A stretch of 40,617 bases of DNA from a bacterium (GTDB lineage: Bacteria; Patescibacteriota; Microgenomatia; UBA1400; UBA12108). The notes under the pieces were generated by a model. That model worked only from the letters and a program-made list of their open reading frames with translations. It did no database searches and was not told the DNA's origin. Position numbers and translations under genes: made by a program. Shown piece by piece: positions 5,018 to 15,955 of the stretch (its first letter is position 1; every line of letters begins with the position of its first letter). The DNA lies in assembly GCA_043809365.1 (NCBI GenBank), contig JAZDDW010000027.1:1-40617 (forward strand). Reading direction: 5' to 3'.

Positions 5018-6763
5018 ATGAAAGTGATCAGAGAGGCGATAAAAAAGACCTTAATGGTCAATGATCAATGGCCAATGGTCGATTTTGTTGTCGAACATCC
5101 CAAGGAGGAGAGTCATGGGGACTACAGTAGCAATGTGGCGCTGATTTTGGCGAAACAGATAGGAAAGAATCCGCGGGAGTTGGCGGAAGCCATTGTAAAG
5201 CAGTGTCACAGTGACACGGTGTCACAGATATGGGAACGGGTGGAGGTGGCGGGAGCGGGATTTATCAATTTTTACCTGAAAAAAGAGTTTTTCCTGGCCG
5301 AAACGAAAAAAGCGATAGAGCCTGGATATGGGAAGAATGAAACTTTGAAGGGCAAAAAAATCATGGTCGAGTATACCGATCCTAACCCCTTCAAAGAAAT
5401 GCATATCGGGCACTTGATGAGTAATACGATTGGGGAGAGTCTGGCGAGGTTGCAAGAAGCCAGTGGGGCGGAAGTGAGGCGGGCGTGTTACCAGGGAGAT
5501 GTAGGGTTGCACGTAGCCAAGGCGATTTGGGGATGGCAGCGGAAAATGGACCAGGAGGGTAAAACGCTGGCTGACTTTAAGGGTCGGACCCTTAAAGTGA
5601 AGGCGAATTATCTGGGGCAGGCGTACGCCTACGGAGCCACAAAATACGAAACCGACGAAACGGCGAAATCAGAAATGAACGCCATGAACAAAGTGATTTA
5701 TGACAAGTCGGATGAAACGATAGATGAGTTGTACCAGGCTGGAAGGGAGTGGAGCCTAGAATATTTTGAGAGCATATACCTCCGGTTGGGGACCAAATTT
5801 GACGAGTATTTTTTTGAGAGCGAGGCGGGACCAGTGGGGCTCAAAGTAGTTGAGGAAGGTTTAGCAAAGAAGGTACTGGAAATAGGGGATGATGGGGCGG
5901 TGGTGTACAGAGGAGAGAAGGATGGACTTCATACTAGAGTATTTCGTAACAAACTGGGACTGCCGACATACGAGGCCAAAGATTTGGGGCTTGCCAAGAC
6001 GAAGTATGAAAGATACAAATATGATTTTTCCTATAACGTGACGGGGAACGAGATCACGGAATATTTCAAAGTGGTGTTGCGAGTGATGGAACAACTTTAT
6101 CCAGATTTGCGGGCGAAAACAACGCATATGCCCCACGGGATGATGAGGCTCACAACGGGCAAGATGAGCTCGCGAACAGGGAAGGTCGTGACGGGAGAAG
6201 GGCTCTTGAATGAGCTAAAAGTGGTGGTACTAACCAAGATGGGAGGGCGCGAGATAGGGGATAAAGATAAAGTGGCAGATATGATTGCGGTGGGAGCGCT
6301 CAAGTATAGTGTGCTCAAGCAGGCGATCGGGGGAAATATCGTCTATGAACCAGAGAAGATGACGAACCTGGAGGGAGACACGGGACCGTATCTGCAGTAT
6401 ACATTCGCAAGATGCTCGAGCGTCTTGCGAAAATCACAAATCTCAAACCCGCCTGCCGGACGGGCAGGTTCTCAAATTCTCAAATTGGGAGCATTACAAA
6501 GTTACGAACCTTGTAATACGGAAGAGCTGGCGATTTTGCGCTGGATTTATCGATATCCAGAAGTGGTATCCGAAGCTGGAGAAAAGATGGCCCCGCACCT
6601 CTTGGCTACGTACTTGTTTGAGTTGGCGCAAAGATTTAATACTTTTTACAATCAACACCAAATTGTGGGGGATGAAGGGCGGATATTGTTGACGAGTGCG
6701 GTGGCAAATGTGCTAAAGAGTGGACTGGGGTTGCTCGGGATCCAGGCTCCGGAGGAGATGTAA
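5018..6763 (+). CDS. argS: Arginine--tRNA ligase
   Basis: HGDYSSNVA, PNPFKEMHIGH (HIGH), KMSSRTG and GDTGPYLQYTFAR. Confidence 0.97.
   Translation: MKVIREAIKKTLMVNDQWPMVDFVVEHPKEESHGDYSSNVALILAKQIGKNPRELAEAIVKQCHSDTVSQIWERVEVAGAGFINFYLKKEFFLAETKKAIEPGYGKNETLKGKKIMVEYTDPNPFKEMHIGHLMSNTIGESLARLQEASGAEVRRACYQGDVGLHVAKAIWGWQRKMDQEGKTLADFKGRTLKVKANYLGQAYAYGATKYETDETAKSEMNAMNKVIYDKSDETIDELYQAGREWSLEYFESIYLRLGTKFDEYFFESEAGPVGLKVVEEGLAKKVLEIGDDGAVVYRGEKDGLHTRVFRNKLGLPTYEAKDLGLAKTKYERYKYDFSYNVTGNEITEYFKVVLRVMEQLYPDLRAKTTHMPHGMMRLTTGKMSSRTGKVVTGEGLLNELKVVVLTKMGGREIGDKDKVADMIAVGALKYSVLKQAIGGNIVYEPEKMTNLEGDTGPYLQYTFARCSSVLRKSQISNPPAGRAGSQILKLGALQSYEPCNTEELAILRWIYRYPEVVSEAGEKMAPHLLATYLFELAQRFNTFYNQHQIVGDEGRILLTSAVANVLKSGLGLLGIQAPEEM
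5053..5080 (+). repeat. AATGGYC heptamer tandem repeat x4, inside argS
   Basis: aatggtc aatgatc aatggcc aatggtc; same family at 19776-19808. Confidence 0.85.
5201..5227 (+). repeat. CAGTGWCA octamer tandem repeat x3, inside argS
   Basis: cagtgtca cagtgaca cggtgtca cag, encoding QCHSDTVS; near-identical copy at 20082-20105. Confidence 0.88.
5574..5598. repeat. REP-like palindrome (RAYT-associated family), inside argS
   Basis: ACTTTAAGGGTC-G-GACCCTTAAAGT with perfect 12-bp arms; the outer arms match the RAYT-flanking palindromes. Confidence 0.88.
6431..6486 (+). repeat. AAAT(T)CTC tandem repeat with a nested 21-nt CCTGCC-family element (6448-6468), inside argS
   Basis: aaatcac aaatctc aaa[cccgcctgccggacgggcagg]ttctc aaattctc aaatt. 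Confidence 0.9.
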
Positions 6764-6765
6764 TT

Positions 6766-7521
6766 TTAGATTTTGCTTTTGAGAAATTCTCCAAAATTAG
6801 TTATTCGTTTACTATCTGAAAGGTTTAATAGGAAAGGGGCGACATCTCTGGCAAGATCAGATAAATTAAGAGTATCCACATACTTGATGAGTTTACGGAG
6901 TTGATCTTTGAGAGAAACTTCCGCGACTGTTTGTAAGTACTCTATATCTGGTTCGGTCAGACCCCACAGATAAGTGACGTCGTAAAGATCGCGACCTTTG
7001 GGACGCTTGCGCTCACCAATAGTCAGCAGTTTTTTGGATAATATTGTACTGGCAGGAGCGACTTTGATGGTCTCAAAGACCCCGTATTTGTTGAGGATGT
7101 GAGGTGTGGATTGGAATGATTGACAGGTAGTGGCGTCGATTTTGATGAGGAGTTTTTCTTCGCTGTATCCCGAAATTCCAAACGATTTGAGGACGTGAGG
7201 GAATTTGAGGTAGCAGTGATAAGTACCCTTGTGAACTAGGCGAGATTCGATCACAAATCCCTTGGCGGTCATGTCAATGATTGTATTTTTCAGTAATTCA
7301 TCAGAGGCGTCAAGCTTGGAGGTGTCAAAATCTAGATCTTGCGAGAAGCGAATGCCTCCGTAGCAGATGCGGATGGCAGTACCGCCAATAAAAGAGAAAA
7401 ATTCACTATTATTTTGCGAAAAAAGACTGGATAGCAGCTCGTGCTGGTAGTATTCGGTCAAGATATTTTTGGTAATACGCGAGGCGGTTGTATACGACAA
7501 AATCTGTTTAAGCGTGAGCAT
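6766..7521 (-). CDS. AbiEii-family nucleotidyltransferase toxin (type IV TA)
   Basis: FIGGTAIRICYGGIRFSQDLDFD and KGRDLYD; overlaps the upstream antitoxin gene. Confidence 0.88.
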   Translation of the reverse strand: MLTLKQILSYTTASRITKNILTEYYQHELLSSLFSQNNSEFFSFIGGTAIRICYGGIRFSQDLDFDTSKLDASDELLKNTIIDMTAKGFVIESRLVHKGTYHCYLKFPHVLKSFGISGYSEEKLLIKIDATTCQSFQSTPHILNKYGVFETIKVAPASTILSKKLLTIGERKRPKGRDLYDVTYLWGLTEPDIEYLQTVAEVSLKDQLRKLIKYVDTLNLSDLARDVAPFLLNLSDSKRITNFGEFLKSKI

Positions 7522-8107
7522 ACATTTCCTCCAGTAATCTGATCAAATAATCCAGGCGCTTGTGTTGAAAGATGGCTAGGTAGGATTGGAGTTTGGGCCA
7601 ATCTATATTTTCGAGATTGAGACGGAGCTCTGCGAGATCTTTGGAGTTTTTGATACTGGGGGTTAGGTAGAAATAATCGAGCAAAGCTTTTTCGCCATCG
7701 GCCAGATTGTAGGGAAGGGGGTGATCTTGGATGTAGGTATAGCCAAAAAATAGCTGAGGGGGGAGGTGCTGGTAAGTGAAGTTACCTTGGGCAAGTTGAT
7801 ATGAGCGGGTGCCTTTGGAGGTTATAGATGTGGCGGTAAAGACTGCTTCGGGGATAATGCCATGATGTGAGAGCGCAAAGGAGAGGGAGAGATAGCTGGG
7901 AGTGACGAGACGGCAGGCAATCATGGCGGAAGAGAGCTCGGGGAGAGAGTCGGAGTAGGCATATAGGCCTCCGCGTAGCTTGGTGAGATAGCCTTTGGCT
8001 TGCCAGGAAGTTAGTTGGGAAGGGGTGTAGCCAGCCCCGAGATTTTTGAGGGTTTGAGAGGTGAAGATCGGGGGCGTGACGAGTTTTCTAAACTCAATGT
8101 ATTTCAT
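7508..8107 (-). CDS. AbiEi-family antitoxin / transcriptional regulator
   Basis: N-terminal wHTH (KLRGGLY), PSYLSLSFALSHHGIIPE and EKALLDYFY. Confidence 0.85.
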   Translation of the reverse strand: MKYIEFRKLVTPPIFTSQTLKNLGAGYTPSQLTSWQAKGYLTKLRGGLYAYSDSLPELSSAMIACRLVTPSYLSLSFALSHHGIIPEAVFTATSITSKGTRSYQLAQGNFTYQHLPPQLFFGYTYIQDHPLPYNLADGEKALLDYFYLTPSIKNSKDLAELRLNLENIDWPKLQSYLAIFQHKRLDYLIRLLEEMYAHA

Positions 8108-9895: not shown

Positions 9896-10504
9896 GTGAT
9901 GAATAGTGGTAGGAAAATTACCAGTAAAAAGAATAAATTGGTCGAGTTAGCCAAGTGGGGGGGAGTGGTGTTTACGGCACAGGATTTAGCCGTGATCTGG
10001 GGATATACAGATGAGCGGAAGTTGTTTGAAACGATAAAATACTATGTTCGCCGAAAAGAGATGTTCGCGATTTCGAGAGGGTTGTATGCAGGAAAAGATT
10101 ATTGCGAGAAGGAGATTAGAGGTAATACTACTTTGCAGTACCAGATAGCCAACAAGCTAATTCCCAACTCGTACGTTTCGCTATACACAGTATTAAAGAG
10201 TGAGGGCGTGATCGACCAATATTATGATGGCGTTTATTCGGTGGCAGGAAGGAAAGCGAGTAGAGTGGTGCGGGGTGTCAAGTTTGAGTACCGGAGGGTA
10301 AGGGGGAGAATACTGTGGAGTGATTGGGGGGTTAACAAAGGAAATGGAGCGCGGGTGGCGAGCTTGGAGCGGGCAGTGCTTGATACCTGGTATTGTGAGC
10401 CAGACTGGGAACTAGGGCGGGTGGAGAAAGTGGATGTGCTAAAACTAAAGGAAGGAGCTAAATTGTATGGGGGGAAGGTCATGCGGAGGGTAAAAGAATG
10501 TTAA
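9896..10504 (+). CDS. AbiEi-family antitoxin
   Basis: ISRGLY, NSYVSLYTVLKSEGVIDQ and ASLERAVLDTWY. Confidence 0.82.
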   Translation: MMNSGRKITSKKNKLVELAKWGGVVFTAQDLAVIWGYTDERKLFETIKYYVRRKEMFAISRGLYAGKDYCEKEIRGNTTLQYQIANKLIPNSYVSLYTVLKSEGVIDQYYDGVYSVAGRKASRVVRGVKFEYRRVRGRILWSDWGVNKGNGARVASLERAVLDTWYCEPDWELGRVEKVDVLKLKEGAKLYGGKVMRRVKEC

Positions 10505-11178
10505 ACATTGAAACGCACAGACAGCAGTTAAGTAGGATCCTCCTGGCGCTGATCAGTGATAAAATGCTGGCGGCAAGGCTAGGATTTAAGGGGGGGACGG
10601 CACTATATTTTTTTGAAGAATTACCGCGTTTTTCGACTGATTTGGATTTTGACTTGATCGGAGAAACGGATCCGACACTGGAGAAAACAATCAGGTCGAT
10701 TGTGGCGGAGTATTTGACCATCGTGGACGAAAAAACCAAGCGTTTCACCTGGTTTTGGCAGGGGAGTTATGGGAAGGGAGAGGCAAAGATTAAGGTAGAA
10801 GTTAACACGCGCAAATATCCCAATTATTATGAAACGAGAGACTGGCGAGGTTATGGAGTTAAGGTCATGGTGAAAGAAGACATGCTGGCGCACAAGCTGT
10901 GTGCGATAACGGATCGAAAAAAGTTGCAAAATCGAGATCTGTACGACGCGTGGTGGATGCTAAAGCGGGGTTGGGAAGCGAATGAGGAGATAATCCAGTT
11001 GCGAACTGACATGAAGTTGAAGGCATATTGGAAAATATTGCTCGCGAAATTGCGAGCGTTACCAGTGAAATATGACGTACTAGCGGGGTTGGGGGAGGTA
11101 ATGAGTCAGAGTCAAAAAGATTGGGTGAAGGCGAAATTGCGAACGAGTTTGGAGCTAGAGTTGGCGAGCAGACTATGA
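10498..11178 (+). CDS. AbiEii-family nucleotidyltransferase toxin
   Basis: FKGGTALYFFEELPRFSTDLDFD, AHKLCA and NRDLYD. Confidence 0.88.
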   Translation: MLNIETHRQQLSRILLALISDKMLAARLGFKGGTALYFFEELPRFSTDLDFDLIGETDPTLEKTIRSIVAEYLTIVDEKTKRFTWFWQGSYGKGEAKIKVEVNTRKYPNYYETRDWRGYGVKVMVKEDMLAHKLCAITDRKKLQNRDLYDAWWMLKRGWEANEEIIQLRTDMKLKAYWKILLAKLRALPVKYDVLAGLGEVMSQSQKDWVKAKLRTSLELELASRL

Positions 11179-11741
11179 AGAAATTAGCCGAGATTGTGAG
11201 CAGAGTCTTTGATCCTGTCTGGGAGATACCGGCGGCGATTGTCATGGCTGTGGTTTTTGCCCTGCAGGAGGGACTGCGGTGGCGGTTTCTGGGCCTCCTG
11301 CTTTTTATCGATGGGGTTGTACCTTTGATCTTTTTCTTGACCATGTTGTATCACCGGCAGATCACGAGTTGGGATATTCGCAAACGTGCGGAGCGGATTC
11401 CGCTGTACCTCTTTACCCTGGCCTGTCACTTGGGTGGGGTGTGGCTGGCGCACGAGGTGGGGAAGGTGGACTTGGCGTGGATCCTGGGCGTGTTTTGGCT
11501 AATTGCAGTCGTATTTGCATCCATCACTATCTTCTGGAAAATTAGCATCCATGCAGGGGTGAATGCCGTCCTCATAACCACGGCCAATGTGTTTTATGGT
11601 TGGCGCTACGCTTGGTTATACCTAGTGTTATGTCTGGTATGTTGGGTGCGGGTGTACCAAAAGCACCATAGCTGGGTGCAGGTCGGCGTGGGGGCGGTGC
11701 TCGGGGGAGGAATGGTAGGAATCGGACTCGGTCTCGTGTAA
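11175..11741 (+). CDS. PAP2-like integral membrane protein
   Basis: Multiple TM helices with WKISIH and RVYQKHHSWVQV motifs; ATGA overlap with the upstream gene. Confidence 0.7.
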   Translation: MKKLAEIVSRVFDPVWEIPAAIVMAVVFALQEGLRWRFLGLLLFIDGVVPLIFFLTMLYHRQITSWDIRKRAERIPLYLFTLACHLGGVWLAHEVGKVDLAWILGVFWLIAVVFASITIFWKISIHAGVNAVLITTANVFYGWRYAWLYLVLCLVCWVRVYQKHHSWVQVGVGAVLGGGMVGIGLGLV

Positions 11742-11757
11742 GATATGGTAAGATACG

Positions 11758-11836
11758 GGGCTATTAGCCTGCCTGTCGGCAGACAGGCTTATTTGGTAGA
11801 GCACCGCACCTGCCTGCCGGCAGGCAGGTTCGCATT
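11758..11836 (+). pseudogene. 5' half of an outer tRNA-Ala(CGC), interrupted by two 20-nt palindromes
   Basis: Removing 11768-11787 and 11809-11828 gives GGGCTAT TA GCTT ATTTGGTA GAGC A CCGCA TTCGCAT. Confidence 0.8.
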
Positions 11837-11841
11837 AAAAA

Positions 11842-12078
11842 ATGTACTTTGTTTATATTCTCAAAAATTCTGAGAATTTCCTCTACAAGGGAATTACAGA
11901 TAATCTGGAACGACGTATTAGTCAGCATAATCATAACCAGTCGGCTGGTACTAGGGGTAAGGGGCCATGGAAATTGGTCTATAGTGAAATTCGTGCTAGC
12001 AGGTCTCTGGCAAGAATACGAGAAAAATATCTGAAATCTGGTGCGGGGAGAGAATTCCTTAAGTCGGTGATAAAATAA
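11842..12078 (+). CDS. Stand-alone GIY-YIG nuclease (UPF0213/Slx1-like, 78 aa)
   Basis: YFVYIL...YKGIT.NLERRISQHN...PWKLVYSE...REKYLKSGAGR. Confidence 0.9.
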   Translation: MYFVYILKNSENFLYKGITDNLERRISQHNHNQSAGTRGKGPWKLVYSEIRASRSLARIREKYLKSGAGREFLKSVIK

Positions 12079-12088
12079 CTTGTTGGTA

Positions 12089-12159
12089 GGGCTCGTAGTA
12101 TAGTGGGAGTACGGTACATTCGCATTGTACAGACGGGGGTCCGATTCCCCCCGAGTCCA
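12089..12159 (+). tRNA. tRNA-Ala(CGC), intact inner copy
   Basis: Cloverleaf: acceptor GGGCTCG/CGAGTCC with G3:U70, anticodon arm GTACA-TTCGCAT-TGTAC, T arm GGGGG/CCCCC. Confidence 0.92.
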
Positions 12160-12178
12160 CCTAGGCGTGTGATATGAT

Positions 12179-12283
12179 CGCATTCGCACCTGCCAAGGGC
12201 AGACAGACCTGCCTGCCGGCAGGCAGGTTGTAGATAGGGCGGGGTCTGCCTACGGCAGATAAATTCGAAACCGCCATGGTCCA
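12179..12283 (+). pseudogene. 3' half of the outer tRNA-Ala(CGC), interrupted by hairpin insertions
   Basis: Removing 12189-12227 and 12243-12263 gives CGCA TTCGCAT TGTAG ATAG GGCGG TTCGAAA CCGCC ATGGTCC A. ATGGTCC pairs with GGGCTAT at 11758, including G3:U70. Confidence 0.78.
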
Positions 12284-12313
12284 CCCGACCCAGATCAGTA
12301 TATTTGGAGATGA

Positions 12314-12553
12314 ATGAATATGAGAGTCACCTATAAAGAAGACGAATACGAAATGACAATGTGTGAAAGGATGTTATTTAAAAGAGGGGGCCTTGGGAAA
12401 GAAGAGGGTTGGAGAGCTGTGTTGTGTTCGACGGAGAATGATGGACGTGAACCACTATATTTTCCCCCAGTGTGGGATCCGGCTATGGGAACTAGAGATG
12501 AATTACTACTATATTTAGGTGCAAGCGGAGTTGAAGTTGGAGACATCCAATGA
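12314..12553 (+). CDS. Hypothetical protein (79 aa)
   Basis: GGAG RBS; ATGA overlap with the downstream peptidase. Confidence 0.55.
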   Translation: MNMRVTYKEDEYEMTMCERMLFKRGGLGKEEGWRAVLCSTENDGREPLYFPPVWDPAMGTRDELLLYLGASGVEVGDIQ

Positions 12554-13812
12554 AGTTTGATGTCAGCTATACCAAGTTGAAGAATGGGGTGAGAGTGCTC
12601 ACGGTGCCCATGGTGGGAGTGGAGTCGGTGACGGCGATGATCCTGGTGAAAACGGGATCAAGGAATGAAACTCTGGAGCAAGCGGGGATCTCCCACGTTT
12701 TGGAGCATATGGTGTTTAAGGGGACAAAAAAATATCCCAGTCCCCTGCATATTGCGGAGGCGGTTGATTCGATTGGGGCAGAGCAGAATGCGTTTACGAG
12801 CAAAGAATATACGGGATACTACATTACCAGTGCGGCGAAACACTTGGGACTAACCTTGGATATTCAGGCTGAGATGTTGACCAAGCCTCTGTTGCCCCAG
12901 GCAGACTTGGAGCGCGAGCGGGAGGTGATTGTGGAAGAAATCAATATGTACGAGGACCAGCCCATGGCTATGGCGGGAGAGTTATTTGAAAACTTGATGT
13001 ATGACGGATCCTCGATGGGAAGACTGATTATTGGGACAAAGGAAACGGTGCGGGGAACGAATGCAACTGATTTGCGAAAGTACATGGGAGAGTGGTACAG
13101 GGGGGGGAATGTGTTGGTGGTGGTGGCAGGAAAAATCTCAAATCTTAAACCCGCCTGCCGGACGGGCAGGTTCTCAAATTCTCAAATTGAGGAGAAATTT
13201 GGGGAAATGAGTGAAGGGCATATTTCTGGATATACAACGAGGGCTAGGTATGGAAAGTCGGAGGCGAGACACCAGAAAAAGAAAACCGAGCAGGCTCATT
13301 TTGTGATGGGAGTACCCGCGCTTCCCATGACAGATCCGAGGCGCTACGCCTTGTCGATCGCACAGGTCGTGCTGGGGGGGACGATGAGTAGCCGACTCTT
13401 TAACGAAATCAGGGAAAAACGGGGACTAGCTTATTATGTGCGAGCTGATTTGGATACTGCATATGACTGCGGATATTTGGCGGTGAGGTCGGGAGTCAAA
13501 CTGACAAAGCTGGGGGAGGCGATGGAAGTAGTCAAAGCCGAGATGCTGAGGTTGGGGGAAACCATCACCGTGGCGGAACTTAAGCGAGGACAGGACTACC
13601 TCCTAGGGAAGATGCCATTAACACTTGAGGATTCGATGGGGGTGGCCCAGTTTTTTGGGACTCGAACCTTGATACTTGACGAGGTTCGTCAGCCAGATGA
13701 GGTGGAGCGAGCCATCAAAGCGGTGAAAATAGGGGACGTAAGGGAAGTGCTGGAGGAATTGGTGAAGGAAGAATTAATCAGATCGGTCGTGGTAGGACCA
13801 AAAGCAAGCTAA
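12550..13812 (+). CDS. M16 family (insulinase/pitrilysin) zinc peptidase
   Basis: HVLEHMVFKGT (HxxEH), NAFTS and SRLFNEIREKRGLAY. Confidence 0.93.
   Translation: MKFDVSYTKLKNGVRVLTVPMVGVESVTAMILVKTGSRNETLEQAGISHVLEHMVFKGTKKYPSPLHIAEAVDSIGAEQNAFTSKEYTGYYITSAAKHLGLTLDIQAEMLTKPLLPQADLEREREVIVEEINMYEDQPMAMAGELFENLMYDGSSMGRLIIGTKETVRGTNATDLRKYMGEWYRGGNVLVVVAGKISNLKPACRTGRFSNSQIEEKFGEMSEGHISGYTTRARYGKSEARHQKKKTEQAHFVMGVPALPMTDPRRYALSIAQVVLGGTMSSRLFNEIREKRGLAYYVRADLDTAYDCGYLAVRSGVKLTKLGEAMEVVKAEMLRLGETITVAELKRGQDYLLGKMPLTLEDSMGVAQFFGTRTLILDEVRQPDEVERAIKAVKIGDVREVLEELVKEELIRSVVVGPKAS
13133..13188 (+). repeat. AAAT(T)CTC tandem repeat with a nested 21-nt CCTGCC-family element (13150-13170), inside the peptidase
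   Basis: Identical 21-mer and junction to the argS copy, read in a different frame (PACRTGR). Confidence 0.9.
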
Positions 13813-14442: not shown

Positions 14443-14506
14443 TGCCCCCACCAAGAATTGTCAGCCCAAGGCTGATCCGCCTAGGGCGGAAACTTGGACC
14501 TGAGAG
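14443..14506 (-). pseudogene. 3' half of an outer tRNA-Arg with a 30-nt double-hairpin insertion in the T loop
   Basis: Removing 14461-14490 (tcagcc-caa-ggctga plus tccgcc-tag-ggcgga) gives CTCTC AGGT CCAAG TTCAATT CTTGG TGGGGGC A. Confidence 0.75.
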
Positions 14507-14578
14507 TGTCCCCGGAAAGAATTGAACTTTCATCACAGGTTTAGGAAACCTGGGCTCTATCCGTTGAGCTACGAGGAC
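14507..14578 (-). tRNA. tRNA-Arg(CCT), intact inner copy
   Basis: Acceptor GTCCTCG/CGGGGAC, anticodon arm CAGGT-TTCCTAA-ACCTG, T arm GAAAG-TTCAATT-CTTTC. Confidence 0.93.
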
Positions 14579-14593
14579 TTTATTGTATTATAA

Positions 14594-14651
14594 CTCGGAA
14601 ACCTGCCTGCCGGCAGGCAGGCCTCTGTTCTATCCGTTAAACTATGGGAGC
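14594..14651 (-). pseudogene. 5' half of an outer tRNA-Arg(CCG), interrupted by the 20-nt palindrome (14602-14621)
   Basis: GCTCCCA TA GTTT AACGGATA GAAC A GAGG[20 nt]T TTCCGAG. GCTCCCA pairs with TGGGGGC at 14444-14450. Confidence 0.78.
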
Positions 14652-15935: not shown

Positions 15936-15955
15936 CCTGCCTGCCGGCAGGCAGG
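15936..15955. repeat. 20-bp palindrome CCTGCCTGCCGGCAGGCAGG
   Basis: Perfect palindrome, identical at 11809, 12208 and 14602. Confidence 0.95.

What the first reader, a model, noticed from the sequence alone, without database searches (positions are those of the whole stretch)
11758..12283. Russian-doll tRNA-Ala: a tRNA split at the anticodon encloses a GIY-YIG nuclease gene and a different intact tRNA-Ala
Seen: after removing short hairpin insertions, 11758-11836 is a tRNA 5' half and 12179-12283 a 3' half. Their acceptor strands pair (GGGCTAT/ATGGTCC, with Ala-type G3:U70), and CGCATTCGCATT is duplicated at both junctions. Between them lie a GIY-YIG gene and a complete tRNA-Ala(CGC) of clearly different sequence. 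This is not the usual integrase att pattern, because there is no integrase and the inner tRNA is not a copy of the outer 3' end. Inference: a minimal selfish cassette (nuclease plus replacement tRNA) that inserts in the anticodon loop of the cognate host tRNA and compensates for the loss. Alternatively it is a tRNA intron carrying a tRNA.
Basis: partly seen in the sequence, partly recalled or inferred. Interest (0 to 1): 0.92.

Follow-up and report, generated by a model that had tools for sequence, protein, structure and literature searches.

The report
Nuclease-plus-tRNA cassette nested in a tRNA
A tiny nuclease gene travelling with its own alanine tRNA sits inside the broken remains of the resident alanine tRNA gene, and the same nuclease-in-tRNA design recurs in many bacterial phyla, pointing to an undescribed selfish element that replaces tRNA genes.

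Summary
With five short GC-rich palindromes and a 342-bp insert removed, 11758-11836 and 12179-12283 join into a tRNA-Ala(CGC) that ARAGORN accepts. It is 88% identical to an intact tRNA at the same position in one same-genus genome. The insert holds a 78-aa GIY-YIG (UPF0213) gene and a complete, different tRNA-Ala(CGC). That inner type is the only tRNA-Ala(CGC) at this locus in five other same-genus genomes. A 12-nt stretch of the anticodon arm is repeated at both junctions. No integrase and no group I intron was found.

The layout recurs. Two more cassettes (Pro, Lys) lie in this genome. In 189 related loci, 102 have a co-oriented tRNA directly after the nuclease gene, 92 of them with a partial 5' copy of that tRNA upstream and 27 with a 3' remnant downstream. 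Carriers include CPR phyla, Bacteroidota isolates and Nitrospirota. One 20-nt palindrome occurs in 55 of the 189 loci, across these phyla. In all 34 placeable cases it is a clean insertion.

Best reading: a homing-type selfish cassette that breaks a cognate tRNA gene and brings the replacement. Nuclease activity and how it moves are inferred. A second nested tRNA, without a nuclease gene, lies at 14443-14651.

The parts
11758..11836 (+). Outer (resident) tRNA-Ala(CGC), 5' part: positions 1-39, interrupted by two 20-nt palindromes
   Evidence: 11787-11808 is 100% identical to the intact G005 tRNA (L033) over 22 nt. The peeled whole is 88% identical to L033.
11768..11787 (.). Palindrome copy 1 (2 mismatches), inserted between tRNA positions 10 and 11
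   Evidence: A clean insertion when compared with the L033 tRNA.
11809..11828 (.). Palindrome copy 2 (exact), inserted between positions 31 and 32
11837..12178 (+). Inserted cassette (342 bp): 5-nt A-rich leader, GIY-YIG ORF, 10-nt spacer, complete tRNA-Ala(CGC), 17-nt tail. Flanked by the 12-nt repeat of outer positions 28-39.
   Evidence: The syntenic loci of 6 same-genus genomes hold one tRNA-Ala(CGC) and no GIY gene.
11842..12078 (+). 78-aa stand-alone GIY-YIG nuclease gene (UPF0213/YhbQ type)
   Evidence: Pfam PF01541 E 2.5e-16, residues 1-66. PDB 1zg2 UPF0213 BH0048, E 1.1e-5. Y5, Y15, G17, R25, H29, E61 are invariant in 15 homologues.
12089..12161 (+). Inner, intact tRNA-Ala(CGC). It is the only Ala(CGC) gene that ARAGORN finds in the assembly.
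   Evidence: It is 88-90% identical to the sole tRNA-Ala(CGC) at the syntenic locus in 5 same-genus genomes.
12179..12283 (+). Outer tRNA-Ala(CGC), 3' part: second copy of positions 28-39, then positions 40-73, interrupted by three hairpin insertions
12189..12207 (.). Degenerate palindrome copy (19 nt)
   Evidence: Read. The CTGCC...GGCAG core is listed.
12208..12227 (.). Palindrome copy (exact). Together with the copy before it, it lies between positions 37 and 38.
12243..12263 (.). 21-nt insert with a 7-bp hairpin between T stem and T loop (positions 53|54)
   Evidence: no tRNA is called if it is kept. L030 has the 20-nt palindrome at the equivalent junction, scored 52|53 on its 73-nt tRNA.

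Best explanation
A minimal selfish cassette is inserted just after the anticodon loop of a resident, allelic tRNA-Ala(CGC) gene. It consists of a leader, a 78-aa stand-alone GIY-YIG nuclease gene and its own complete tRNA-Ala(CGC).

SHOWN:
- The resident gene survives as two dead halves around the cassette, with 12 nt of its anticodon arm present on both sides.
- The cassette's tRNA is the only Ala(CGC) gene found in the assembly.
- Both tRNA types occur alone at this locus in sister genomes.
- The same design (partial tRNA copy, nuclease gene, full tRNA, often a 3' remnant) recurs for many isotypes, in this genome and across phyla.
- A conserved 20-nt palindrome is precisely inserted in the displaced copies.

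INFERRED:
- The nuclease breaks a cognate tRNA gene that lacks the cassette.
- The break is repaired by copying the cassette from a filled allele (homing with short or micro-homology, which leaves variable overlaps of 12 to about 35 nt).
- The carried tRNA keeps the cell viable and makes the cassette hard to lose.
- The nuclease gene is read from the tRNA's own promoter, with RNase P freeing the tRNA.
- Later recombination between inner tRNA and outer 3' remnant gives the commoner 'partial 5' copy, nuclease, tRNA' form.

The role of the palindromes is open. My preferred guess is that they break the displaced copies. This would stop them from being cut again and from recombining with the functional tRNA, which would delete the cassette.
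For: Anatomy and peeled tRNA.

Allelic proof: of 6 same-genus syntenic loci with a tRNA-Ala(CGC), none has a GIY gene. 1 is outer-type (88% identical) and 5 are inner-type (88-90% identical).

Sole isoacceptor genes: Ala(CGC), Pro(TGG) and Lys(TTT) are each found once, and each sits in a cassette.

Recurrence in 189 loci (29 from relatives, 80 from metagenomes, 80 from named genomes):
- a co-oriented tRNA starts -79 to +60 nt from the nuclease stop in 102 loci, and ends within 60 nt upstream in 34 more (one further locus has tRNAs on both sides and is counted among the 102);
- 39 loci have none and 14 are cut by a contig end;
- chance for one gene is about 0.3% (39 tRNAs in 819 kb, my arithmetic).

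Partial copies: 92 of the 102 have an upstream copy of the tRNA's 5' part and 27 of the 102 a 3' remnant downstream. 28 of the 34 'upstream tRNA' loci have a 3' copy after the nuclease gene.

L104 is another tRNA-Ala(CGC) nested in a divergent outer gene.

Intact genes: catalytic-type residues are invariant, and few of the listed matches carry stop codons.

Nuclease lineages partly track tRNA isotype: 36 changes against a shuffled mean of 49.4 and a minimum of 44 in 200 shuffles.

Other public contigs show the same frame with a different nuclease gene.

Precedent: phage SegB, a GIY-YIG enzyme, cuts inside tRNA genes and co-localises with them (passages of PMC13096335).
Against: - No cleavage, transcription or mobility has been observed.
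- The protein is only a catalytic domain (Pfam covers residues 1-66 of 78). It lacks the DNA-binding domain by which known GIY-YIG homing enzymes find long targets.
- In most loci the displaced copy is identical to the functional tRNA. The enzyme could therefore not tell target from replacement by tRNA sequence alone.
- Tandem units (L143) could come from unequal crossing-over rather than repeated homing.
- The overlaps at the junctions (12 to about 35 nt) are not what a 2-nt staggered GIY-YIG cut would give by itself (the 2-nt stagger is recalled).
- A nest without any nuclease gene exists in this window.
- 39 of 189 homologues have no tRNA within 60 nt, though some of these hide palindrome-broken tRNAs.
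- E. coli yhbQ (36% identity) is annotated as a DNA-damage exonuclease, so the family also has ordinary cellular members.
- The tree has 78 columns and weak support.
Confidence: 0.6

Rival explanations
1. The palindrome is the mobile agent. The short GC-rich palindromes are miniature elements that the small GIY-YIG enzyme mobilises or cuts, as a structure- or palindrome-specific nuclease acting in trans. tRNA genes are preferred targets. The partial tRNA duplications and the spare tRNA are then repair products, or rescues selected after palindrome hits, and not cargo of a homing cassette.
For: - The same 20-nt palindrome occurs in 55 of 189 nuclease loci across CPR phyla, Bacteroidota and Nitrospirota.
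- All 34 placeable copies are clean insertions, and 24 of them lie at tRNA positions 20-24.
- Other hairpins sit at the same tRNA position in Flavobacteriaceae loci.
- In Algoriphagus (L137) a full second tRNA copy is broken only by two palindromes.
- Copies lie far from nuclease genes: 11 in this genome, some reading in frame through HIT-like, DprA-like and topoisomerase-like ORFs, and 1-13 in 24 of 61 relatives.
- None of the 6 relatives without a nuclease match holds the palindrome.
Against: - 31 of the 55 relatives with a nuclease match hold no palindrome.
- Many cassettes carry other hairpins or none with a stem of 6 or more (26 of 91).
- The 0-of-6 result is weak (about p 0.04 by my arithmetic, and kin are not independent).
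- This reading does not by itself explain why a divergent complete tRNA sits inside the outer gene here.
Confidence: 0.17
2. The nuclease gene is a passenger. The small GIY-YIG gene is an ordinary cellular (YhbQ-like repair) gene that has settled in tRNA operons for expression. The partial tRNA copies come from ordinary recombination or replication slippage at tRNA genes, or from integration of a circular intermediate by homologous recombination. Nuclease-driven homing plays no part.
For: - The family includes E. coli yhbQ and phage copies that are not next to tRNAs.
- 39 of 189 homologues have no adjacent tRNA.
- Many ORFs run into the tRNA and stop at its T8-A9-G10, as expected for tight co-transcription.
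Against: - The stereotyped junctions in the anticodon arm recur for about 19 isotypes.
- Displaced halves lie on both sides.
- The cassette is absent from all 6 syntenic loci of the genus.
- The nuclease gene differs within an otherwise conserved frame in other runs.
- Near-relatives of the gene occur across phyla.

All of these are marks of a mobile insertion.
Confidence: 0.13
3. The outer gene is a working split or intron-containing tRNA. The cassette and the hairpins would be removed from the transcript, or the halves joined in trans, to give a second tRNA-Ala(CGC).
For: The insertion lies at the anticodon loop, where bacterial group I tRNA introns sit (recalled). The acceptor halves still pair.
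Against: - No intron or ribozyme family matches 11400-12700 at E<=10.
- Six separate insertions in D stem, anticodon loop and T loop would all need removal.
- The anticodon stem carries a C.A mismatch compared with the intact orthologue.
- An identical-anticodon tRNA is already present inside.
Confidence: 0.03
4. The layout is an assembly artefact: a chimeric contig that joins reads of two strains with different tRNA-Ala alleles.
For: The genome is a 63-contig assembly. Many homologous cassettes lie at contig ends, so these repeats do disturb assemblers.
Against: - Logan contigs of other runs span the left junction (X1 identical over 11615-11801; X2 over 11691-11835, running on into a new GIY-like start).
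- One 1423-nt contig (X3) joins outer 5' part, a 257-nt middle, inner tRNA and the right junction.
- The same nested design is seen in complete or long contigs of other genomes.
Confidence: 0.02

Closest known systems
Phage T4/T6 SegB, a free-standing GIY-YIG homing endonuclease in tRNA gene clusters
   Same: SegB is a GIY-YIG nuclease gene sitting among tRNA genes. It cuts inside tRNA genes, co-localises with tRNAs of many isotypes, and drives recombination that duplicates tRNA-plus-nuclease units (passages of PMC13096335 read, which cites Brok-Volchanskaya 2008).
   Different: SegB is a phage protein with extra domains; its length of roughly 220 aa is recalled, not tested. It lies between tRNA genes, not inside one, and no displaced tRNA halves or conserved palindrome are described in the passages I read. 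The protein here is 78 aa, chromosomal, of UPF0213 type, and found in CPR, Bacteroidota and other phyla.
Free-standing endonuclease ORFs in organelle genes that bring a replacement gene end (for example the Allomyces atp6 case, recalled from Paquin, Laforest and Lang 1994; not read here)
   Same: A mobile nuclease gene inserts into an essential gene. It carries a copy of the displaced part, so function is kept, and the resident fragment is left behind as a pseudogene.
   Different: Those targets are protein-coding genes in mitochondria and only a gene end is carried. Here the target is a tRNA gene, a whole tRNA is carried, and palindromes mark the displaced pieces.
Integrase-borne genomic islands and prophages at tRNA genes
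   Same: A tRNA gene is the target, function is restored by element-borne sequence, and a partial tRNA repeat is left at the far end.
   Different: No recombinase was found. The element is 342 bp. The repeat is 12 nt of the anticodon arm rather than the 3' end. The restored tRNA is a separate complete gene.
Group I introns with homing endonuclease genes in bacterial tRNA anticodon loops
   Same: The insertion site is the anticodon loop of a tRNA gene, and a GIY-YIG gene can ride inside (recalled).
   Different: No ribozyme core is present. The interrupted tRNA is not rescued by splicing but replaced by a second gene.
Short palindromic repeats that insert into genes (Rickettsia palindromic elements, REP/RAYT systems; recalled)
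   Same: These are dispersed GC-rich palindromes, some read through in frame inside protein genes. REPs have a dedicated nuclease or transposase.
   Different: The element here is 20 nt, identical across phyla, preferentially placed in displaced tRNA copies, and possibly partnered by a GIY-YIG enzyme. None of this was in the papers I could search.

Membership tests
GIY-YIG nuclease superfamily (Pfam PF01541), UPF0213/YhbQ branch | Sequence match to the GIY-YIG catalytic domain above the curated cut-off | tested here: met
   60.2 bits against a cut-off of 22.6, E 2.5e-16, residues 1-66. PDB UPF0213 BH0048 (1zg2), E 1.1e-5. E. coli yhbQ, 36% identity. No NCBIfam model matched.
GIY-YIG nuclease superfamily (Pfam PF01541), UPF0213/YhbQ branch | Conserved Tyr, Tyr/Gly, Arg, His and Glu of the active site | tested here: met
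   Y5, Y15, G17, R25, H29 and E61 are invariant in 15 homologues. Assigning them to catalytic roles is recalled, not tested.
GIY-YIG nuclease superfamily (Pfam PF01541), UPF0213/YhbQ branch | Nuclease activity | not testable with these tools
   Needs biochemistry.
Free-standing homing endonuclease gene | Presence/absence polymorphism at an otherwise conserved site | tested here: met
   All 6 same-genus syntenic loci with a tRNA-Ala(CGC) lack the cassette. Other runs carry a different nuclease gene in the same frame.
Free-standing homing endonuclease gene | Inserted in or beside its own conserved target gene | tested here: met
   Lies inside tRNA-Ala(CGC). In 136 of 189 homologous loci a co-oriented tRNA adjoins the gene.
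Free-standing homing endonuclease gene | Enzyme cuts the empty allele and spares the filled one | not testable with these tools
In most loci the displaced copy and the functional tRNA are identical, which leaves self-sparing unexplained.
Free-standing homing endonuclease gene | DNA-binding module that recognises a long target | tested here: not met
   The protein is 78 aa and the Pfam domain fills residues 1-66. No second domain is present. I therefore say it 'works like' a homing endonuclease gene and do not file it as a typical member.
Group I intron in a tRNA gene | Group I ribozyme core | tested here: not met
   Rfam scan of 11400-12700 at E<=10: only the inner tRNA passes, with no intron family.
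Integrase-mediated island at a tRNA att site | Tyrosine or serine recombinase gene in the element | tested here: not met
   Pfam on 16 ORFs between 5018 and 19507 gave ArgRS, AbiEii twice, M16 peptidase, NDK, AAA/DUF4143, PEGA, MerR/HTH and MreB, and no recombinase. Only ORFs of 110 aa or more were listed. Five of the 16 ORFs had no Pfam match.
Integrase-mediated island at a tRNA att site | Direct repeat made of the tRNA 3' end | tested here: not met
   The repeat is 12 nt of anticodon stem and loop, positions 28-39.
Archaeal-type split or bulge-helix-bulge intron tRNA | Bulge-helix-bulge motif at the exon junctions and a splicing endonuclease | not tested
   Not examined. The host looks bacterial, and the outer gene has five further insertions outside the anticodon loop.

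The most novel reading that the evidence does not exclude
A two-part 'tRNA gene drive' spread across bacterial phyla. One part is a domain-sized GIY-YIG nuclease that recognises structured DNA (the cloverleaf-coding region or the extruded 20-nt palindrome) rather than a long sequence. The other part is a conserved palindrome that is written cleanly into displaced tRNA copies. Together they knock out a resident tRNA gene and install their own allele. tRNA alleles at a locus would then turn over by selfish replacement: the two Ala(CGC) types and the two Arg(CCT) types in this genus would be snapshots of that process. The essential cargo tRNA would act as an addiction module.
Probability: 0.3. 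Interest if true: 0.92.

Novelty: new variant of a known kind. Interest (0 to 1): 0.8.

Why it matters
If the reading holds, this would be the smallest self-sufficient homing-type element I know of: about 340 bp, made of one catalytic domain plus one tRNA. It would answer how a nuclease gene can invade an essential RNA gene without an intron, namely by bringing a spare.

It would give a function to part of the large orphan UPF0213 family. It would explain why assemblies of CPR and Bacteroidota genomes break at tRNA genes, and why tRNA scanners miss or miscount genes there. It would also identify selfish replacement as a force in tRNA gene evolution.

The 20-nt palindrome, identical from CPR to Bacteroidota and Nitrospirota while the proteins beside it are only about 45-60% identical to the window's, is a strong candidate for a cis-acting site of unknown kind. 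Cultured carriers exist (Algoriphagus litoralis, Gillisia limnaea, Mesonia algae), so the idea can be tested at the bench.

Tried and rejected
- ARAGORN with intron search on the raw region found only the inner tRNA, plus a weak reverse-strand 'Arg' with an intron at a relaxed threshold. I disregarded the latter.
- A generic hairpin-stripping routine over-trimmed into the flanks and was dropped.
- A library of 181 tRNAs blasted against the tRNA-masked genome recovered only the remnants at the three cassette loci above noise. It missed the Arg nest.
- The promoter scan found no sigma-70-like site in 11500-12600. The only + strand 'terminator' was palindrome 1. This is uninformative for this kind of organism.
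- Sequencing runs: no RNA holder was listed, so expression could not be examined. All holders had small shares (at most 0.15 of the words). Parts of the stretch without contig cover say nothing.
- Homodimer job on the nuclease, asked because a palindromic site would suit a dimer: 'no answer'.
- Phage and plasmid collections: 12 and 8 records at no more than 50% identity. The two phage loci I opened have no tRNA beside the gene, so no vector was identified.
- Literature: six full-text searches found no paper describing small GIY-YIG genes nested in bacterial tRNA genes, nor the palindrome string. Subscription journals are not in that library. Supplements are closed; the supplementary neighbourhood tables of PMC13096335 might list bacterial cases.
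- Papers seen: I read passages of PMC13096335, and the abstract and outline of PMC2677866. All other papers were seen as search listings only.
- Taxonomy of the window's genome was not established. The nearest named nuclease homologue is from a Candidatus Shapirobacteria MAG (62% identity).
- Considered and rejected: tandem triplication of a tRNA followed by decay. The two outer pieces pair with each other, both match one allele (L033), and the middle gene matches another allele.
Full report
WHAT IS THERE

The window is contig C27 of an 819-kb, 63-contig, 46% G+C genome. Between a membrane-protein ORF (11121-11741) and an M16 peptidase gene (12550-13812) lie, on the + strand:
- a stretch that begins like a tRNA (11758 onward);
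- a 78-aa ORF (11842-12078) that matches the GIY-YIG catalytic domain (PF01541, E 2.5e-16, residues 1-66);
- an intact tRNA-Ala(CGC) (12089-12161; ARAGORN, and Rfam 60.5 bits);
- a stretch that ends like a tRNA (to 12283).

The two tRNA-like stretches are interrupted by short GC-rich palindromes. The 20-nt perfect palindrome CCTGCCTGCCGGCAGGCAGG occurs at 11809-28 and 12208-27, and with two mismatches at 11768-87. The window holds five matches against none in 100 shuffles. A degenerate copy lies at 12189-12207, and an unrelated 21-nt hairpin insert at 12243-63.

TESTING THE JOINED HALVES

I removed those five inserts and 11837-12178 by coordinates inside a script. ARAGORN then calls a 75-nt tRNA-Ala(cgc) with a G3.U70 pair, a second wobble pair in the acceptor stem and one C.A mismatch in the anticodon stem. 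If the T-loop insert is kept, nothing is called.

I chose the boundaries with a tRNA in mind, so the stronger evidence comes from relatives. I fetched the M16 locus from all ten other genomes of the genus. Six of them hold a tRNA-Ala(CGC) in the locus, beside the M16 gene. It lies between the membrane-protein gene and M16 in the five loci where that gene matched, and it is inverted in L039. None has a GIY-YIG match there.
- One of them (L033, genome G005) is 88% identical to the peeled outer tRNA and 61% to the inner one.
- The other five are 88-90% identical to the inner tRNA and 66-70% to the outer one.

Both the outer and the inner gene are therefore real alleles of the tRNA-Ala(CGC) at this position. 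The window shows one nested in the other. Compared with L033, every palindrome is a clean insertion (at positions 10|11, 31|32, 37|38 and 53|54). The outer gene also has two changes in the 3' strand of the anticodon stem.

IS THE ASSEMBLY SOUND?

No run holds most of the stretch. Laying Logan contigs of four runs gave three useful pieces:
- a 187-nt contig identical over 11615-11801, running from the upstream gene into the outer 5' part;
- a contig matching 11691-11835 with nine differences, which continues into a different sequence beginning with an ATG;
- a 1423-nt contig that matches 11787-11834 exactly, then has 257 other letters, then matches 12089-12229 with 17 differences.

The nested frame therefore exists in other samples, with another gene in the middle.

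NOT AN INTRON, NOT AN INTEGRASE ISLAND

An Rfam scan of 11400-12700 at E<=10 finds only the inner tRNA above threshold, and no intron or ribozyme family. Pfam on 16 ORFs between 5018 and 19507 finds ArgRS, two AbiEii toxins (one beside an AbiEi-like antitoxin), M16, NDK, an AAA/DUF4143 protein, PEGA, a MerR/HTH protein and MreB. No recombinase is among them.

RECURRENCE IN THE SAME GENOME

tblastn finds four small GIY-YIG genes.
- On C43, the first 23 nt of tRNA-Pro(TGG), the same 20-nt palindrome and 7 more tRNA nucleotides precede a GIY gene. The full tRNA-Pro(TGG) follows it.
- On C2, a GIY gene and the full tRNA-Lys(TTT) lie between two overlapping pieces of a Lys-like tRNA whose anticodon arm is replaced by a GC-rich tetraloop hairpin.
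- The C15 copy belongs to a sub-group that sits after tRNAs in relatives, with a repeat of the tRNA 3' end downstream.

Ala(CGC), Pro(TGG) and Lys(TTT) are each found only once in the assembly, inside these cassettes.

RECURRENCE ELSEWHERE

55 of 61 related genomes have matches, often several, and often at contig ends. I analysed 189 loci: 29 from relatives, 80 from metagenome contigs and 80 from named genomes.
- In 102, a co-oriented tRNA starts between -79 and +60 nt of the nuclease stop.
- In 34 more, a co-oriented tRNA ends within 60 nt upstream. One further locus has tRNAs on both sides and is counted among the 102.
- 39 have none, and 14 are cut by a contig end.

For one gene in this genome the chance of the first pattern is about 0.3% (39 tRNAs in 819 kb).

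Many ORFs lack a stop of their own and end in the tRNA's T8-A9-G10 (offset -10).

Of the 102, 92 carry a copy of the 5' part of that very tRNA within 220 nt upstream. It usually starts at position 1, ends in the anticodon arm and is split by extra sequence. 27 also carry a 3' remnant within 700 nt downstream, which is the full 'Russian doll'. Of the 34 with the tRNA upstream, 28 have a copy of its 3' part after the nuclease gene.

L104 is another tRNA-Ala(CGC) nested in a divergent outer gene. L030 has the palindrome at the T-stem/T-loop junction of its 3' remnant, as hairpin 5 does here. L082, L097 and L042 show a terminator carried after the inner tRNA. L143 has two tandem units before one tRNA.

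Named carriers span many CPR phyla, Bacteroidota (22 of 29 loci tRNA-linked, including the isolates Gillisia limnaea, Mesonia algae and Algoriphagus litoralis), Nitrospirota, Omnitrophota, Thermodesulfobacteriota, Myxococcota and Pseudomonadota.

THE NUCLEASE

It is a bare catalytic domain of the UPF0213/YhbQ kind (PDB 1zg2, E 1.1e-5; E. coli yhbQ 36% identity). Y5, Y15, G17, R25, H29 and E61 are invariant among 15 homologues of 43-55% identity.

A tree of 103 homologues is poorly resolved (78 columns). The tRNA isotype label needs 36 changes, against 49.4 on average and never fewer than 44 in 200 shuffles. Lineages therefore tend to stay with an isotype but switch often. Kin share labels, so this is only a hint.

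THE PALINDROMES

Between the start of the upstream tRNA copy and the ATG, 65 of 91 loci have a GC-rich hairpin with a stem of 6 or more. The shuffled mean best stem is 4.4, and in 45 loci at most 1 of 50 shuffles reaches the observed stem.

The very same 20-nt palindrome (up to 2 mismatches) occurs 67 times in 55 of the 189 loci, in CPR phyla, Bacteroidota, Nitrospirota and one Pseudomonadota MAG. In all 34 cases where both flanks can be matched to the neighbouring intact tRNA, the insertion is exact, with no duplication and no loss. 24 of the 34 lie at positions 20-24, at the end of the D loop. Flavobacteriaceae loci carry a different, longer hairpin at the same place. In Algoriphagus a complete second tRNA-Leu copy is broken only by two palindromes.

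The palindrome is also dispersed. There are 11 copies in this genome, some reading in frame through protein genes, and 1-13 copies in 24 of 61 relatives, with zero matches to the reversed control. None occurs in the six relatives that lack a nuclease match.

Twenty identical nucleotides persist across phyla beside proteins only about 45-60% identical to the window's. This speaks for function or for frequent transfer. What the palindrome does is not shown.

A SECOND NEST IN THE WINDOW

On the minus strand, a tRNA 5' part (14651-14594, with the palindrome at 14602-21 in its anticodon stem), 15 nt, the intact tRNA-Arg(CCT) (14578-14506) and a tRNA 3' part (to 14443, with two other hairpins in the T loop) form the same design without any nuclease gene.

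The outer pieces match an intact tRNA-Arg(CCT) in genome G001, at 100% over 30 nt and over 19 nt. The outer gene is therefore an Arg(CCT) allele broken inside its anticodon. Genome G006 keeps the 55-nt hairpin-laden 3' remnant at 100% identity beside an NDK gene that is only 77% identical. Either the nuclease gene was lost here, or nests can form with a nuclease supplied in trans.

HOW IT MOST LIKELY WORKS

Shown:
- an insertion of nuclease gene plus tRNA into a cognate tRNA gene;
- repeated, with the same design, for about 19 isotypes and in many phyla;
- with the cassette's tRNA as the only working gene for its anticodon here.

Inferred:
- the nuclease breaks a cognate tRNA gene;
- repair copies the cassette from a filled allele;
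- the cargo tRNA keeps the cell alive and ties the cell to the cassette;
- recombination between repeats later trims the nest.

The closest precedent is phage SegB. It is a GIY-YIG enzyme that cuts inside tRNA genes, co-localises with tRNAs and drives duplication of tRNA-nuclease units (passages of PMC13096335).

Points against a simple homing model:
- the missing DNA-binding domain;
- the identity of displaced and functional copies in most loci;
- the long and variable overlaps at the junctions;
- the nuclease-less nest.

The main rival is that the palindromes are the mobile agents, the enzyme is their nuclease, and tRNA duplication is a consequence.

NOVELTY

Six full-text searches found no description of this arrangement or of the palindrome. 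The library lacks most subscription journals. I class it as a new variant of a known kind (free-standing homing-type nuclease genes), with a conserved palindrome component that has no counterpart I know of.

Noticed in passing
window 14443-14651, minus strand: A second nested tRNA with no nuclease gene. The outer Arg(CCT)-type halves carry the 20-nt palindrome at 14602-21 and two other hairpins at 14476-90 and 14461-75. They lie around the intact tRNA-Arg(CCT) at 14506-14578. An intact orthologue of the outer gene exists in G001. G006 keeps the same 55-nt 3' remnant at 100% identity.
   Followed up: yes
G000 C43:13167-13571 and C2:28175-28633: Two more GIY-YIG cassettes in this genome, around tRNA-Pro(TGG) and tRNA-Lys(TTT). 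In the Lys case, both outer pieces have the anticodon arm replaced by a GC-rich tetraloop hairpin and overlap by about 30 nt.
   Followed up: yes
G000 C17:193-212, C34:134-153, C34:2151-2170; window 15936-15955: Copies of the 20-nt palindrome away from tRNAs. Three read through in frame inside ORFs that look like a HIT-family protein, DprA and topoisomerase I (my reading of the translations; no family search was run). One lies between two convergent ORFs.
   Followed up: partly
window 13155-13169 (M16 peptidase) and 6453-6467 (ArgRS): A related palindrome core (CTGCCGGACGGGCAG) lies inside two protein genes. In M16 it falls in a linker whose length varies among the eight genus sequences aligned.
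   Followed up: partly
window 6766-8107 and 9896-11178: Two AbiEii-type toxin genes (type IV toxin-antitoxin). The second has an AbiEi-like antitoxin ORF directly upstream (NCBIfam E 1e-8, below the cut-off). They lie just upstream of the cassette region.
   Followed up: no
L137 (Algoriphagus litoralis DSL-12), about 730-1330 of the oriented locus: In a cultured isolate: an intact tRNA-Leu(CAA), a terminator, a GIY-YIG gene, then a full second tRNA-Leu copy broken only by two palindromes (in the D arm and the T loop). This is a ready experimental system.
   Followed up: partly
many loci, e.g. L006, L015, L029, L042, L055, L132: The nuclease ORF has no stop codon of its own. It runs through the first 7 nt of the tRNA and ends at the tRNA's conserved T8-A9-G10 (TAG).
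   Followed up: partly
G000 C62:3780-3809: Two tandem 15-nt palindromes of the TCCGCC...GGCGGA type, the same family as one of the hairpins in the Arg nest. Their context was not examined.
   Followed up: no
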